Shown piece by piece: positions 4,888 through 10,630 of a stretch of DNA of 64,000 nt. Below the pieces are notes generated by a model, which made no database searches, was not told the origin of the DNA, and saw only the letters and a program-made list of their open reading frames with translations. The stretch's first letter is position 1. Each line of letters opens with the position of its first letter. The position numbers and the translations under genes were made by a program. This DNA is from Escherichia phage vB_EcoM_SQ17. The stretch is from the sequence record MW882907; one strand, written 5' to 3'.

Positions 4888-5574
4888 TTACCAGCCTTCC
4901 ATAGGGAATTCCAGATAAACTTGAGCATTGACACGAATTTCATTGGTAATCTTTTTAACTCGGTCTGTATTACGAGATACACGTCCGAACCAACGCCATC
5001 CATTACTAATTGCACGAGAACCAGTGTGCCATGTTTGCCAATCAAACTGAAGAAGAGTACGATCTGGAGCTTCCCATTTCTCTAGTTCACCTTTTTCAAT
5101 TTTTTCGAGGACTTCTTTGTGCCACTGACGATAGATAAGTTCGCCATCAGGAATCTGACTGAACTCTGCAGTTCCTGTTGCAAAATGAGTAGGACACACG
5201 TCAGCGTTAACAAGACCAAGAATATGTTCAGACAAATAGCGAGGATTGTCATAATCAGGTTGTCCTGCAGTAATAAAGTGTTGACCAACTGGAATATCAG
5301 GGCGTGGTACATCATCATGGTGATATCCAGGAATAGCAGGATACCAACCAGGCATCAGCATGTGGACTCGTGAATCAAATACTACATCAGAGTCTTTCCA
5401 ATCGTCAGGAAGATTTTGGATAAAGCTACGAGTAATTGGGCCGCCATTATCAAAAGCAAAATTCAAATCGCAGTTAAAGAACATAGGCTCGTTTTTAATC
5501 TGGTCGTTTTTAATCGCATGAGCAAAACCACCTACTGCACGAGCTTGACTATTAAACACTTTAGAACTATTCAT
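4888..5574 (-). CDS. hypothetical protein (His/Asp-rich, possible metal-dependent enzyme)
   Basis: 228-aa ORF, tight spacing with neighbours; PGYHHDDVP and CPTHFATG motifs; no secure family assignment. Confidence 0.4.
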   Translation of the reverse strand: MNSSKVFNSQARAVGGFAHAIKNDQIKNEPMFFNCDLNFAFDNGGPITRSFIQNLPDDWKDSDVVFDSRVHMLMPGWYPAIPGYHHDDVPRPDIPVGQHFITAGQPDYDNPRYLSEHILGLVNADVCPTHFATGTAEFSQIPDGELIYRQWHKEVLEKIEKGELEKWEAPDRTLLQFDWQTWHTGSRAISNGWRWFGRVSRNTDRVKKITNEIRVNAQVYLEFPMEGW

Positions 5575-5952: not shown

Positions 5953-6909
5953 TTATTTGAAAGGTTTTACCATATGGAAATTTTGTTTGAAACGTTTGAC
6001 GTAATCGTCATGTCCTAAGCTTTGGTACATACTTACTACTTTGCTGTAGTTTTCCCAGGCATACTCACGGAACCAACCAGAGGTGATGCTTGTGCAGACT
6101 TTTTCCAATGCCATCATGAAACTGGCTTCAGGGTTAATTTTAAAGTCATTAGGAATTTGAGAACGTTCTAATGCTAGTACACATGATTCTTCGTATACAC
6201 CGGCCAATTTGACCATTTCTGGTAATGATTCAAACTTCTCGCGTGAGGTCATGACTTCAGAACCGTCTTTCATATAAAATGTATACGCTGGACAGTCTGT
6301 TAGTGCAATGGCTTCATGAATAGTATCATGGTCATATGTATAGATGTCATCTTTAAAGAACGCACTTTTAGAAGTGTCAAGAACCGGGTGAGCATAGTTC
6401 AAGGTTTCTTTCTGGCGTTTCAGCATAATTTCAGTAAGTTCATCGTTCAGTGTAACACCTTTACCACGAAGATACTGAATATGGTTCATAGTCTTTAAAA
6501 AGAATGGATTATTTTTCTTGAAACGATGAGACATCTTAATGGCAAGACATATCTCAGGAGTTGCCCAGTAAAACCCGTTCAAACGGTCTTTAGTCAAATT
6601 TTTCTTGGCGTATTTTAAAAGGCCATAAGAAGACGTGAAATCTTCAGGAGTGAGTTCACCGACTAATTCACGGACATTAGTGATTGCCGGAACAATATAT
6701 GCTTCAAAATGAGTTTCGCGTCCATTATGGAAGCATTTGAAAACTTGGACATCAGGGTTATCTTGATGAACATATACACCCATCATTTGATTTTTGAATG
6801 CATTCCAAGAACCTTGGTCTGCAATAAAGTCCCAGTCACTATTTTTGATAGCGTTAGAATCAATAAGACCATGATAGTGAAGTGCACGAGAACCAATAAC
6901 TAACATCAT
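5953..6909 (-). CDS. hypothetical protein, possible nucleotidyltransferase-fold motif
   Basis: 318-aa ORF; N-terminal LVIGSRALHYHGL...NSDWDFI loosely fits the GS...DxD nucleotidyltransferase signature (spacing longer than typical). Confidence 0.45.
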   Translation of the reverse strand: MMLVIGSRALHYHGLIDSNAIKNSDWDFIADQGSWNAFKNQMMGVYVHQDNPDVQVFKCFHNGRETHFEAYIVPAITNVRELVGELTPEDFTSSYGLLKYAKKNLTKDRLNGFYWATPEICLAIKMSHRFKKNNPFFLKTMNHIQYLRGKGVTLNDELTEIMLKRQKETLNYAHPVLDTSKSAFFKDDIYTYDHDTIHEAIALTDCPAYTFYMKDGSEVMTSREKFESLPEMVKLAGVYEESCVLALERSQIPNDFKINPEASFMMALEKVCTSITSGWFREYAWENYSKVVSMYQSLGHDDYVKRFKQNFHMVKPFK

Positions 6910-6933: not shown

Positions 6934-7185
6934 TTAAATTTCACGACATGCGATATCATATTCATCCCAGAGGTCATCATGTGAAGCCTCTACCAATGGA
7001 ACGATTGTACCATTTATGTCTTCGTTATAAGGGCAAATTGTACAGTGTGCATCTTCAAATCGGATGCCTTTGTGTTCAGATTTTTTATAACGCATATCGA
7101 ATATCTTTGCAAACTTTTCACGAGTAATGGTTTTAGCAACCACTTCGGTTCCGATACTTTCGTAATAAATCATTGTGGACTCCAT
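6934..7185 (-). CDS. hypothetical small protein
   Basis: 83-aa ORF with CTIC..H..C residues; early promoter upstream. Confidence 0.35.
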   Translation of the reverse strand: MESTMIYYESIGTEVVAKTITREKFAKIFDMRYKKSEHKGIRFEDAHCTICPYNEDINGTIVPLVEASHDDLWDEYDIACREI

Positions 7186-7194
7186 TTAATTTGA

Positions 7195-7235
7195 TAGGAC
7201 TACTATAACATAGCCCTATCTTGTTGTAAACTGTT
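7195..7235 (-). promoter_or_regulatory. T4-type early promoter
   Basis: minus-strand GTTTAC ... TATAGT element, same repeat family as other early promoters in the window; coordinates approximate. Confidence 0.5.
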
Positions 7236-7433
7236 TTAGCAAGAATAACTAGATGATACCCAGCCTTGAACAGTAATGCTATTATTGGATAATGAGATCG
7301 CGTCCTGGAGATTCAGACCTGCGTTATCTTCAATCCACAATGTAACTTCTTCGCGTTCTTCTGTTGCAATTTGGAACAGGTTTTCCAGAGCAGCTACTGC
7401 CGTACGTACAGCACAATCTAATTCACGAGACAT
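7236..7433 (-). CDS. hypothetical small protein, C-terminal GWVSSSxxC family
   Basis: 65-aa ORF ending ...SITVQGWVSSSYSC; paralog of the adjacent ORF. Confidence 0.4.
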   Translation of the reverse strand: MSRELDCAVRTAVAALENLFQIATEEREEVTLWIEDNAGLNLQDAISLSNNSITVQGWVSSSYSC

Positions 7434-7442
7434 ATGGTTTCC

Positions 7443-7715
7443 TTAGCAAGTGTGAGAAGATGCAATCCAACCACCAGTTTCGAGGCTCAGGTTGTAGTCG
7501 TATTGGTAAACGTCAGCCCATTCGGCATAGCCGTTTTTTGTACAACGTTCAAGATCGGCTTTAAGTTGTCCGGGTGAATGATAGGTTCCACCCATACCAT
7601 AAGCTGGATACAAGTTGAATGTTGTGTTTTGTTTATCAGCAATTTCTTTGGCAGCCTCAATAGCTGCATAGATTTTTGCTACGGCTTCAGCCAGTTCGGT
7701 TTGTTCTTTAGACAT
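7443..7715 (-). CDS. hypothetical small protein, C-terminal GWxxSSxxC family
   Basis: 90-aa ORF ending ...GGWIASSHTC; same 3' junction architecture as neighbour. Confidence 0.4.
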   Translation of the reverse strand: MSKEQTELAEAVAKIYAAIEAAKEIADKQNTTFNLYPAYGMGGTYHSPGQLKADLERCTKNGYAEWADVYQYDYNLSLETGGWIASSHTC

Positions 7716-7724
7716 AATGATTCC

Positions 7725-7778
7725 TTAGCACATCGCAGAAGACGAAACCCAAGCACCTTTGGTAATAGAGGGTATGAA
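7725..7778 (-). pseudogene. 3' remnant of a third GWVSSSxxC-family gene
   Basis: Minus-strand reading gives ...FIPSITKGAWVSSSAMC-stop with an in-frame stop just upstream and no start; same stop-RBS-ATG junction as the intact paralogs. Confidence 0.35.
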
Positions 7779-7798
7779 TTAATAATAACACATAATTC

Positions 7799-8314
7799 TT
7801 AAAGCAAATCAATCATTTTAACGGTTGGCAAAACGATTTCTTCTTCAATATAAGCAAATTCGACACGTTCAACTACACGCAAGAAATCATAATCATAATA
7901 TTCAGAAGCATGGCCAAGAATATCAGTGAGACCTTCTGATACCAAATATCCATTCTCACGGAACAGGTCAAATACACGTGATTCGTCTTCTTCAGATTTA
8001 TTACCGAGGTCGACTTCAATATCAAAGACCTTTTTAATGAATTCTGGATAAAGCTGGTCCGAGAACAGTCCTTCAACCAAGTATTCATAGATTAAAAGCG
8101 AGCAATCACTGAATAGTGTATTACCACAGTAACGTTCAGCTTTAGTACTAGAATGACGACTCTTAAATTTCTTCAAGAGATATTTAAACTGTTGGATCTC
8201 ATGCTCTTCTACACCAAATAATGTTTTGGTTTTATAATTGTCGCCATCATTTTCCCAAGTAGTGACATCAATTACGTAACCTTTAGGAATTGTACTGCCT
8301 AAACAAATATTCAT
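7799..8314 (-). CDS. hypothetical protein
   Basis: 171-aa ORF, acidic; no recognisable motif. Confidence 0.4.
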   Translation of the reverse strand: MNICLGSTIPKGYVIDVTTWENDGDNYKTKTLFGVEEHEIQQFKYLLKKFKSRHSSTKAERYCGNTLFSDCSLLIYEYLVEGLFSDQLYPEFIKKVFDIEVDLGNKSEEDESRVFDLFRENGYLVSEGLTDILGHASEYYDYDFLRVVERVEFAYIEEEIVLPTVKMIDLL

Positions 8315-9224: not shown

Positions 9225-9533
9225 CTATTTTATTCCGCGTGATGCAATCGTATTCTGCCGTTTAACGCCAGTTTGTTTAAAGTTATGATTGTCGAGTTGA
9301 TCGGTACGAGCAACTCCGAATGATGATTTAATCTTAGCTTTAGATCCTTTAGTTATAGAAATATACATCTCGGGAGCCCCTTTCTTAAAGTCCGAAGCAA
9401 TTACTTCAACACCGTTCTTAGCAAGTGACCTCAGAATTGCTTCCGCATACTCATCATCAAGACCCGCTTGAGTATGAATAACGAATGTCTTTGGCGCAGC
9501 TGCTTCACAGATAAATTCTTTAAATGTTTTCAT
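9225..9533 (-). CDS. internal protein I-like (CTS leader)
   Basis: MKTFKEFICEAA leader; at the T4 ipI locus adjacent to 57B. Confidence 0.6.
   Translation of the reverse strand: MKTFKEFICEAAAPKTFVIHTQAGLDDEYAEAILRSLAKNGVEVIASDFKKGAPEMYISITKGSKAKIKSSFGVARTDQLDNHNFKQTGVKRQNTIASRGIK

Positions 9534-9944: not shown

Positions 9945-10630
<686 letters not shown>

What the first reader, a model, noticed from the sequence alone, without database searches (positions are those of the whole stretch)
7236..7778. Tandem small-protein paralogs ending GW(V/I)(S/A)SS..C plus a decayed third copy
The 65-aa and 90-aa proteins both begin MS(R/K)E... and end in SITVQGWVSSSYSC and LETGGWIASSHTC. Directly upstream of the second gene, with the same stop-GGAA-ATG junction, the minus strand reads ...FIPSITKGAWVSSSAMC-stop with no start codon and an in-frame stop 17 codons upstream. 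That is the 3' remnant of a third copy whose body has been deleted or replaced, which indicates recent gene turnover in this family. The invariant C-terminal Cys is unexplained.
Basis: seen in the sequence. Interest (0 to 1): 0.6.

Follow-up and report, generated by a model that had tools for sequence, protein, structure and literature searches.

The report
Cys-tailed phage proteins partnering a nucleotidyltransferase
Two small acidic phage proteins, plus the stump of a third lost in a recent 5.1-kb deletion, belong to a widespread uncharacterised family whose members all end in G-W-x-x-S-S-x-x-Cys and almost always sit just upstream of one conserved phage nucleotidyltransferase, which suggests an undescribed two-part system.

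Summary
The observation reproduces exactly. The window is an RB69-like T4-type phage (Mosigvirus), with these genes on the minus strand. The remnant is real. Relatives carry an intact 101-aa third copy at that position, and all 10 contigs shown that encode the identical 90-aa protein have it. Here a 5,121-bp deletion crossed over inside an imperfect 16-nt repeat (TATTAC..AAGGTGCT). It removed tRNA-Met, a homing endonuclease, e.8 to e.3 and 279 nt of copy 3. Only about the last 10 codons of the 17-codon remnant come from the gene. RB69, AV115 and EP32B carry independent lesions in the same array.

I infer that the tail is the element this enzyme recognises, and I favour a serine acceptor. An inhibitor role like that of MenA1 is the main rival. 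No literature was found. The function has not been tested.

The parts
7236..7433 (-). 65-aa tail-bearing small protein (phrog_4882), net charge -7, ends GWVSSSYSC
   Evidence: Orthologues occur in JS98 and in Klebsiella T4-like phages.
7443..7715 (-). 90-aa tail-bearing small protein (phrog_899, the type with a YGMGG core), net charge -5, ends GGWIASSHTC
   Evidence: In the AF2 model, helix 2-27 has block-mean pLDDT of 86-91 and residues 37-89 are below 50.
7725..7751 (-). Sequence that can only have come from the lost third copy: codons W-V-S-S-S-A-M-C plus the stop
   Evidence: Matches the 3' end of the intact 101-aa gene of 308Ecol101PP and vB_VIPECOMC06.
7752..7767 (-). Deletion junction: the 16-nt stretch TATTACCAAAGGTGCT, shared imperfectly (14 of 16) by the DNA after the 171-aa gene and by copy 3. 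The crossover lies inside AAGGTGCT.
   Evidence: The two flanking alignments to L086 overlap at exactly window 7767-7752. The missing segment is L086 1074-6194, or 5,121 bp.
7768..7798 (-). Native intergenic DNA downstream of the 171-aa gene. It supplies the 'FIPS' codons of the apparent remnant and the in-frame TAA.
   Evidence: Identical in RB69, EP32B and vB_VIPECOMC06, where it precedes tRNA-Met.
7716..7724 (-). Stop-to-start spacer GGAATCATT carrying the ribosome-binding site of the 90-aa gene. The 90-aa/65-aa junction at 7434-7442 has the same layout.
7799..8314 (-). 171-aa gene (phrog_2290, RB69 ORF151c homologue). It forms the left flank of the deletion.
5953..6909 (-). 318-aa DUF7277+DUF7275 protein, a predicted pol-beta-type nucleotidyltransferase and the conserved partner gene of the small-protein family
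6934..7185 (-). 83-aa protein (phrog_3723) lying between the array and the nucleotidyltransferase. It is lineage-specific and not part of the universal core.
7185..7230 (-). Early-promoter-like site (TTTACA-17-TATAGT, with TG before the second hexamer) overlapping an 11-bp stem-loop, directly after the 65-aa gene. The arrangement resembles a PeSL.
   Evidence: dG -16 kcal/mol, z -3.2. The PeSL concept comes from PMC2839356 and PMC4122927.

Best explanation
Shown: the 65-aa and 90-aa genes and the stump are what remains here of a three-gene array of small, acidic proteins. Each is predicted to have one long N-terminal helix and a remainder that AlphaFold2 could not model. Each ends in the tail G-W-x-[S/A/P]-S-S-x-x-Cys-COOH. 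These proteins form a phage-restricted cassette with the nucleotidyltransferase (NTase) encoded just downstream.

Inferred: the tail is the element that this enzyme recognises. My favoured mechanism is that the exposed tail enters the NTase active site. There the invariant Ser-Ser hydroxyls act as acceptors for a nucleotidyl or phosphoryl group. The Trp anchors the tail, and the terminal Cys thiol and carboxylate help position it or bind metal. The divergent bodies would give each modified paralogue a different downstream role.

Shown: the third copy was destroyed in this phage by a recent 5,121-bp deletion formed by recombination in a 16-nt imperfect repeat. The array is an accessory, frequently eroded locus.
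For: Family and tail:
- 207 clusters at 50% identity score E<=1e-3. The 150 listed are all 63-143 aa, and nearly all matches run to the last residue.
- 133 of 143 new representatives match W-x-x-S-x(0-5)-C at the C-terminus, and 127 of those have the exact G-W-x-x-S-S-x-x-C spacing. Nine of the 10 exceptions add only one residue after the Cys.
- 92 of 99 representatives in the word-indexed search also carry the tail.
- Bodies diverge beyond detection while the tail stays.

Coupling to the enzyme:
- 67 of 74 IMG/VR loci encoding an NTase relative (40-97% identity; T4-like, Phapecoctavirus-like and ~350-kb jumbo phages) have 1-5 tail ORFs.
- All of those ORFs are upstream on the same strand and none is downstream. 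The opposite strand gave 4 hits in all 74 loci.
- A looser scan finds candidates in all seven of the 'empty' loci: clear same-strand upstream members in two, a likely remnant in one, and an opposite-strand ORF about 4.7 kb away in four. It also finds members in all 5 MAG loci.
- Among 42 non-redundant loci, this is the only gene family that travels with the enzyme: 39 of 42, against at most 12 for any unrelated neighbouring family.
- The cassette also sits in different genome contexts, for example next to nrdD in Aeromonas phage avDM4 and in Phapecoctavirus.

Enzyme:
- The GS...DxD...E and K..HR residues are invariant or nearly so.
- The confident model is most similar to MenT1, TglT, MenT4 and the O-adenylyltransferases ANT(2'') and LnuA.
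- All of these transfer to hydroxyl acceptors, and MenT3 is phosphorylated on an active-site Ser (PMC10435456; auto-phosphorylation per the abstract of PMC11375011).

Tail accessibility: residues 37-89 have pLDDT around 40. The proteins have a mean net charge of -8.

Deletion.
Against: - No physical or biochemical link between the tail and the enzyme has been shown. The inference rests on gene linkage and motif logic.
- The distance from the invariant Ser to the Cys varies. One subfamily ends W-x-x-S-S-C, so the geometry is not rigid.
- EP32B and IMG/VR locus L033 keep an intact enzyme with no intact tail protein. The enzyme is therefore not obviously useless without them.
- Distant, shorter homologues in Streptomyces, Gordonia and some Vibrio phages have no tail proteins nearby.
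- The closest structural relative, MenT1, uses its small upstream partner as an inhibitor, not as a substrate.
Confidence: 0.42

Rival explanations
1. The small proteins are MenA1-like inhibitors or timers. They bind the nucleotidyltransferase and block its active site. The acidic tail would mimic the tRNA 3' end that the enzyme would otherwise extend. The enzyme would be a host-shutoff or tRNA-modifying activity, kept in check or scheduled by several inhibitor paralogues.
For: - MenT1 is neutralised by MenA1, a 68-aa protein encoded immediately upstream. MenA1 has a long helix and a disordered C-terminus (PMC10435456).
- The phage proteins have the same size, gene order and predicted architecture.
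- They are strongly acidic, which fits mimicry of a nucleic-acid substrate.
Against: - In MenA1 the helix suffices and the C-terminus is dispensable. Here the C-terminal tail is the only invariant part.
- Two to five divergent inhibitors for one enzyme would be unusual.
- A virulent phage has little need to protect its host.
- The family is absent from bacterial chromosomes: only 5 MAG contigs among 185,579 species.
- There is no sequence similarity to MenA1 or to any PDB chain.
- EP32B keeps the enzyme with no intact small protein.
Confidence: 0.22
2. The small proteins are specificity adaptors. The shared tail docks on the enzyme, and each divergent body recruits a different target (particular tRNAs or host proteins) for nucleotidylylation.
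For: - A conserved tail on divergent bodies fits a model of one common partner and several variable partners.
- Distinct paralogue types persist as orthologues across genera.
- The cassette often lies near tRNA or RNA-repair genes.
Against: - The bodies are short and mostly predicted to be disordered, so there is little to build a recognition surface from.
- No precedent is known to me for adaptor subunits of MenT-like enzymes.
- No target is indicated by any search.
Confidence: 0.12
3. The tail works independently of the neighbouring enzyme. It could be a tag recognised by a host factor (protease, chaperone, metal site or redox partner) or a mimic of a host protein's C-terminus. The linkage to the enzyme would then reflect a shared pathway or co-inheritance only.
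For: - Strictly C-terminal motifs are typical of tags.
- The locus lies in a hyperplastic region where unrelated accessory genes cluster.
- The array and the enzyme may be separate transcription units here, because a promoter-like site lies between them.
Against: Linkage survives across unrelated phage groups and different genome contexts. The order and strand are fixed, and no other gene family shares this pattern. Such persistence is hard to explain without a direct functional tie.
Confidence: 0.14
4. The similarity of the 3' ends is a DNA-level feature, such as a recombination or translational-coupling cassette copied between genes, and not a protein motif.
For: - The stop/RBS/start junctions are nearly identical.
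- Two independent deletions, in the window phage and in AV115, end in the tail-coding DNA.
Against: - The three tails use different codons, including AGT versus TCT for Ser.
- The motif is kept in over 200 clusters from phages with unrelated nucleotide sequences and junctions.
- The deletions are explained by chance microhomology (G-A/D-W-V codons).
Confidence: 0.02

Closest known systems
MenAT1 toxin-antitoxin pair of Mycobacterium tuberculosis (MenT1 nucleotidyltransferase and the 68-aa MenA1)
   Different: - There is no sequence homology on either side.
- The phage enzyme is about 120 residues longer, with an extra, highly conserved C-terminal helical region.
- The partners come in arrays of 1-5 and are defined by an invariant C-terminal tail, which MenA1 lacks and does not need.
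- The cassette is found in virulent phages, not in bacterial chromosomes.
AbiE / MenAT3-type systems (DUF1814 toxin regulated through phosphorylation of an active-site serine)
   Same: An NTase-fold enzyme and a protein partner encoded upstream. There is precedent for phosphoryl transfer onto a serine hydroxyl within this enzyme family (PMC10435456; PMC11375011 abstract).
   Different: The antitoxins there are large proteins with a winged-helix DNA-binding domain and a C-terminal kinase domain. The modified serine there is in the toxin itself. Pfam does not place the phage enzyme in DUF1814.
MNT-HEPN modules (a minimal nucleotidyltransferase AMPylates its partner protein)
   Same: A pol-beta NTase covalently nucleotidylylates a hydroxyl residue on a small protein encoded next to it. 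This is the chemistry I propose. (Basis: my own knowledge of the published work; not tested here.)
   Different: The acceptor there is a tyrosine in a folded HEPN RNase. There is no tail motif and there are no arrays. Those are bacterial and archaeal toxin-antitoxin loci.
RiPP gene clusters with several precursor genes beside one modifying enzyme (for example lanthipeptides with a C-terminal Ser...Cys ring or AviCys)
   Same: There is a tandem array of short ORFs with a helical N-terminal part and an exposed C-terminal Ser/Cys segment, next to a single conserved enzyme. The S-x-x-C-COOH spacing recalls the epidermin AviCys site. (Basis: my own knowledge.)
   Different: No known RiPP enzyme class, protease or exporter is present. 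In this family the conserved part is the would-be core rather than the leader. The products are 63-143-aa acidic proteins.
Hyperplastic regions of T4-type genomes and PeSL-mediated modular shuffling
   Same: The locus lies in the variable tRNA-to-e region. One PeSL-like promoter and stem-loop lies after the 65-aa gene. Gene content differs between close relatives.
   Different: The deletion studied here did not use PeSL repeats. It used a chance 16-nt imperfect repeat between intergenic DNA and the tail-coding sequence.

Membership tests
PHROG families phrog_899 and phrog_4882 (phage proteins of unknown function) | Significant match to the family profile | tested here: met
   The 90-aa protein matches phrog_899 at E 2.7e-18. 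The intact 101-aa copy matches phrog_899 at 2e-23. The 65-aa protein matches phrog_4882 at 1.1e-36.
Tail-bearing small-protein family (defined in this report) | Protein of 63-143 aa ending in W-x-x-S-S-x(0-3)-C, with the Cys last or next to last | tested here: met
   Both window proteins and the stump carry the tail. 133 of 143 and 92 of 99 cluster representatives carry it.
Tail-bearing small-protein family (defined in this report) | Encoded upstream, on the same strand, of a DUF7277-DUF7275 gene | tested here: met
   In the window the array is at 7236-7715 and the enzyme at 5953-6909, both on the minus strand. The same layout holds in 67 of 74 IMG/VR loci and in 5 of 5 MAG loci.
MenAT / AbiE (DUF1814 nucleotidyltransferase toxin with a cognate antitoxin) | The toxin belongs to the DUF1814 family by sequence | tested here: not met
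   Pfam gives only DUF7277 and DUF7275. PADLOC gives no match. PDB sequence and profile searches find no MenT chain.
MenAT / AbiE (DUF1814 nucleotidyltransferase toxin with a cognate antitoxin) | MenT-like bilobed NTase fold with pol-beta motifs I and II and C-terminal Lys/Asp catalytic residues | tested here: inconclusive
MenAT / AbiE (DUF1814 nucleotidyltransferase toxin with a cognate antitoxin) | The enzyme is toxic and is neutralised by the upstream gene product, and it extends tRNA 3' ends | not testable with these tools
   This needs expression and tRNA 3'-end sequencing.
MenAT / AbiE (DUF1814 nucleotidyltransferase toxin with a cognate antitoxin) | Resides in bacterial or archaeal genomes as a two-gene module | tested here: not met
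   The enzyme occurs in 733 phage records. Among one genome for each of 185,579 species it occurs in only 5 contigs, all from MAGs. Arrays of up to 5 partners occur.
RiPP biosynthetic cluster | Short precursor gene(s) adjacent to a modifying enzyme | tested here: met
   This shows adjacency only.
RiPP biosynthetic cluster | The enzyme belongs to a recognised RiPP-tailoring class, and a leader peptidase or exporter is present | tested here: not met
   No such domain appears in the cassette or its conserved neighbours.
RiPP biosynthetic cluster | The core peptide is post-translationally modified | not testable with these tools
   This needs mass spectrometry.
PeSL-mediated modular shuffling (T4-type hyperplastic regions) | The rearrangement end-points lie in repeated promoter/stem-loop cassettes | tested here: not met
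   The end-points are the 16-nt imperfect repeat at 7752-7767. The only PeSL-like element found, at 7185-7230, is not at the junction.

The most novel reading that the evidence does not exclude
The tail is the acceptor of a previously undescribed protein modification installed by the phage nucleotidyltransferase. One option is O-nucleotidylylation, or priming of a short nucleotide chain, on the invariant Ser-Ser. Another is Ser activation followed by elimination and capture by the terminal Cys, which would give a lanthionine- or AviCys-like ring. Either would turn a set of small acidic phage proteins into modified effectors. That would be a new, phage-specific enzyme-substrate system spread across T4-like, Phapecoctavirus-like and jumbo phages.
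Probability: 0.2. Interest if true: 0.85.

Novelty: new variant of a known kind. Interest (0 to 1): 0.6.

Why it matters
Gene turnover in a T4-type hyperplastic region is ordinary. The other result is not. A strictly C-terminal G-W-x-x-S-S-x-x-Cys tail is shared by more than 200 clusters of small phage proteins. It is coupled by fixed order and strand to one highly conserved, phage-restricted nucleotidyltransferase across very different phage groups. Neither partner has a described function: Pfam lists the enzyme as DUF7275/DUF7277, PHROGs lists both small-protein families as 'unknown function', and no paper was found.

The pairing gives a concrete, cheap experiment: co-express the genes, look for a mass shift or binding, and mutate W, SS or C. 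The closest structural relatives of the enzyme are tRNA-modifying toxins, and the cassette lies among anti-defence and RNA-related accessory genes. The answer could therefore reveal either a new way for phages to control or redirect a MenT-like enzyme, or a new protein modification.

Tried and rejected
- **Complex model.** I built a 20-row paired alignment of enzyme, linker and small protein to model the complex with AlphaFold2.
- **AFDB fold search.** The afdb50 library was unavailable.
- **Small-protein model.** Its tail region has pLDDT around 40, so I ran no fold search on it.
- **AV115 'different body'.** I first read AV115's 103-aa protein ending GDWVSSSALC as proof that the tail sits on unrelated bodies. 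It is in fact an in-frame fusion made by a deletion. The first 97 aa come from a 167-aa protein (phage ZQ3...KDGDWV|VDV...) and are joined to the last 6 codons of copy 3. I dropped that argument. Tail-on-divergent-bodies now rests on the profile comparisons.
- **EP32B junction.** I first thought EP32B shared the window's junction. It has the native sequence after the 171-aa gene and a separate deletion running from tRNA-Met into the 65-aa gene.
- **PeSL-mediated deletion.** Rejected, because the end-points are a chance microhomology.
- **HD-phosphohydrolase reading.** The conserved H...HD...D residues in DUF7275 suggested this. No profile or fold evidence supports it, so I do not claim it.
- **Database searches with no informative match.** Pfam, NCBIfam and PADLOC for the small proteins. 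PDB by sequence and by profile for both families.
- **Literature searches with no relevant hit.** DUF7275, DUF7277, PF23940, PF23942, ORF134c, phage RiPP plus nucleotidyltransferase, and C-terminal cysteine plus Tevenvirinae.

Full report
**1. What is at the coordinates**

Genes in this part of the window run on the minus strand.
- The 65-aa ORF (7236-7433) reads MSRELD...ITVQGWVSSSYSC.
- The 90-aa ORF (7443-7715) reads MSKEQT...LETGGWIASSHTC.
- The 83-nt gap between the stop of a 171-aa gene (7799-8314) and the 90-aa start reads TAA-FIPSITKGAWVSSSAMC-TAA (7778-7725). It has no usable start codon.
- Both junctions have the form TGC TAA GGAA(A/T)C(C/A)(A/T)T ATG.

The pattern W[VIL][SAT]S[ST]..C occurs three times in all six frames of the 64-kb window, and all three are here. 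The serine codons differ between the copies, so the conservation is at the protein level.

**2. Which phage, and the fate of the third copy**

Megablast places the window in Mosigvirus, the RB69-like T4-type phages. In RB69 the locus lies between e.3 and e.2, in the variable tRNA-to-e region.

Phage 308Ecol101PP and many other Mosigvirus phages have an intact 101-aa gene ending ...ITEGAWVSSSAMC directly before the 90-aa gene. All 10 contigs shown that encode the identical 90-aa protein keep it.

I compared the window with vB_VIPECOMC06. Window 8700-7752 aligns to one block and 7767-6802 to another block 5.1 kb away. The two alignments overlap by 16 nt. The native DNA after the 171-aa gene reads TATTACCAAAGGTGCTC, and copy 3 reads TATTACTGAAGGTGCTT. 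The window carries CA from the first and TGGG from the second, so the crossover lay inside AAGGTGCT.

The 5,121 bp lost carried:
- tRNA-Met and a homing endonuclease;
- phrog_3355, e.8, phrog_18312, phrog_5461 and a frd.3-like gene;
- e.6, e.5, e.4 and e.3;
- 279 of the 306 nt of copy 3.

Only about the last 10 codons of the '17-codon remnant' therefore come from the gene. The FIPSIT codons are intergenic DNA that precedes tRNA-Met in relatives. The whole window has no tRNA gene. The junction sequence is absent from INPHARED, IMG/VR and complete E. coli genomes, so the event is recent and private to this phage or a small clade.

**3. Recurrent erosion of the array**

- RB69 has copy 3 split into ORF139c and ORF138c.
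- AV115 has an in-frame fusion of the first 97 codons of an unrelated 167-aa gene to the last six codons of copy 3. It arose by recombination at GGTG(A/C)TTGGGTT.
- EP32B has a deletion from inside tRNA-Met to codon 12 of the 65-aa gene. It removed copy 3 and the 90-aa gene.
- Frameshifted variants of the 90-aa protein exist (P0011 and P0012).

**4. Are the copies paralogues?**

Profile-profile comparison shows that the 90-aa type and the 101-aa type are homologous throughout. The probability is 99.4%, and 98.3% after removing the last 10 residues. The 65-aa type matches the 90-aa type only over the last 16 residues. That probability is 84%, and it falls to 1.4% without the tail. What the 65-aa protein shares with the others is the tail and the general layout.

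**5. The family**

A profile search of 1.84 billion representatives finds 207 clusters at E<=1e-3. The 150 listed are all 63-143 aa, and nearly all matches run to the last residue. No hit is fused to a larger protein.
- Of 143 new representatives, 133 match W-x-x-S-x(0-5)-C at the end, and 127 of those have the exact W-x-x-S-S-x-x-C spacing. Gly usually precedes the Trp.
- Nine of the 10 exceptions add only one residue after the Cys.
- A shorter subfamily ends W-x-x-S-S-C and carries a second, internal D-W-x-S-S-x-C-Y-G-E motif.

The proteins are very acidic. Mean net charge is -8 and 97% are negative. The 20 residues before the Trp are 26% Asp/Glu. AlphaFold2 with a 29-sequence alignment gives a confident helix at residues 2-27 and pLDDT around 40 for residues 37-89.

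Members occur in T4-like phages of Escherichia, Klebsiella, Enterobacter, Serratia, Aeromonas and Acinetobacter. They also occur in Phapecoctavirus, in ~350-kb jumbo phages and in Myxococcus phage Mx1.

**6. The partner gene**

In every locus first inspected, the array lay just upstream of a protein of 300-320 aa. In the window this is 5953-6909 (-), which Pfam assigns to DUF7277 plus DUF7275.

I scanned 74 IMG/VR loci that encode relatives of this protein at 40-97% identity.
- 67 have 1-5 tail ORFs, all upstream on the same strand and none downstream.
- The opposite strand gave 4 hits in total.
- A looser pattern finds candidates in all seven 'empty' loci: clear same-strand upstream members in two, a likely remnant in one, and an opposite-strand ORF about 4.7 kb away in four. 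It also finds members in all five MAG contigs.

I clustered all ORFs from 42 non-redundant loci. The small-protein family is the only one that accompanies the enzyme nearly everywhere. It is in 39 of 42 loci, against at most 12 for any unrelated neighbouring family.

The enzyme occurs in 733 phage records. Among one genome for each of 185,579 bacterial and archaeal species it occurs in only 5 contigs, all from MAGs. Distant, shorter homologues in Streptomyces, Gordonia and some Vibrio phages lack tail proteins nearby.

**7. What the partner is**

Homologues share invariant G5-S6, D24-x-D26, E68, K124 and H127, nearly invariant R128, and a long invariant C-terminal stretch that includes two Cys. 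The AlphaFold2 model is confident, with pLDDT 90.5 and pTM 0.84.

It is therefore a pol-beta-type nucleotidyltransferase of the MenT/AbiEii and antibiotic-adenylyltransferase kind. There is no sequence-level membership in DUF1814.

**8. How it most likely works**

The linkage, the motif and the enzyme class are shown. The mechanism is inferred.

A tail that stays invariant on diverging bodies, coupled to one highly conserved enzyme, points to the tail as the element the enzyme recognises. Enzymes of this fold transfer nucleotidyl groups to hydroxyls, and MenT3 is phosphorylated on an active-site serine (PMC10435456; described as auto-phosphorylation in the abstract of PMC11375011). The tail offers an invariant Ser-Ser beside an aromatic anchor, at an exposed C-terminus. 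I therefore favour the tail as an acceptor substrate (confidence 0.42).

The main rival is a MenA1-like inhibitor (0.22). MenT1 is blocked by a 68-aa helical protein encoded upstream (PMC10435456), and the phage proteins have the same size, order and layout. However, the C-terminus of MenA1 is dispensable, whereas here the C-terminus is the only invariant part.

The other rivals are specificity adaptors (0.12), a tail that acts on a host factor (0.14) and a DNA-level cassette (0.02, largely refuted by codon usage).

**9. Novelty**

PHROGs and Pfam list these families as of unknown function. Six literature searches found no description of either family or of the pairing. The closest known system is the MenAT1 type. 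The defining sequence and host features of that family were tested and not met. I rate the finding a new variant of a known kind, namely an NTase paired with a small partner encoded upstream. There is a 0.2 chance that it is a new protein modification.

**10. Limits**

- No complex could be modelled.
- No coordinates were available to map the conserved residues onto the model.
- All functional statements are inference from comparative genomics.

Noticed in passing
window 9945-10400 (-): The 151-aa protein is a clear Acb1 (anti-CBASS nuclease, the T4 57B position), with Pfam PF23474 at E 7e-59. The tail-protein/NTase cassette therefore lies a few kb from a known anti-defence gene.
   Followed up: partly
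window 1-64000: ARAGORN finds no tRNA gene in the whole window. Relatives carry tRNA-Met (plus tRNA-Arg or tRNA-Asn) exactly in the segment deleted here, so this phage may have lost the tRNA genes that its relatives carry there.
   Followed up: partly
window 7185-7230 (-): A sigma-70/T4-early-like promoter (TTTACA-17-TATAGT, with TG) overlaps an 11-bp stem-loop (dG -16 kcal/mol, z -3.2). It lies right after the 65-aa gene and resembles the PeSL cassettes described for T4-type hyperplastic regions.
   Followed up: partly
L002 (phage EP32B) 3126-3180; window 7400: An independent deletion in EP32B joins the 5' part of tRNA-Met to codon 12 of the 65-aa gene. The enzyme is left intact with no intact tail protein. 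This is a natural 'array-less' variant that could be used in experiments.
   Followed up: yes
L004 (phage AV115) 4044-4355; L087 401-904: AV115 encodes a chimeric 103-aa protein. The first 97 aa come from an unrelated 167-aa protein and are fused in frame to the last six codons (SSSALC) of copy 3. It is a natural test of whether the tail alone confers the property.
   Followed up: yes
window 9225-9533 (-): The 102-aa protein starts MKTFKEFICE. From memory, this resembles the capsid-targeting sequence of T4 internal proteins (MKTYQEFIAE). AV115 has a similar MKSYAEFLTE protein nearby. These may be injected internal proteins.
   Followed up: no
window 4888-5574 (-): The 228-aa protein downstream of the enzyme (RB69 ORF132c homologue) has no Pfam, NCBIfam or PADLOC match. 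It co-occurs with the enzyme in 9 of 42 non-redundant loci only. Its function is unknown.
   Followed up: partly
window 6934-7185 (-): The 83-aa protein (phrog_3723) sits between the array and the enzyme and contains H-C-T-I-C-P. It is present in enterobacterial T4-like phages only. It could be a lineage-specific third component.
   Followed up: no
L095 (Acinetobacter phage phi1_092060) 3162-4115: The homologue of the enzyme in this record is annotated 'DefenseFinder protein'. Another homologue (Pseudomonas phage 16Q) is annotated 'putative nucleotidyltransferase'. I did not check the basis of the DefenseFinder label.
   Followed up: no
L086 (phage vB_VIPECOMC06) 1219-1887: A homing endonuclease gene sits next to tRNA-Met inside the segment missing from the window. 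A 2026 paper links the SegB homing endonuclease to amplification of the tRNA and anti-defence locus (PMC13096335, abstract listed). It may contribute to the instability of this region.
   Followed up: no
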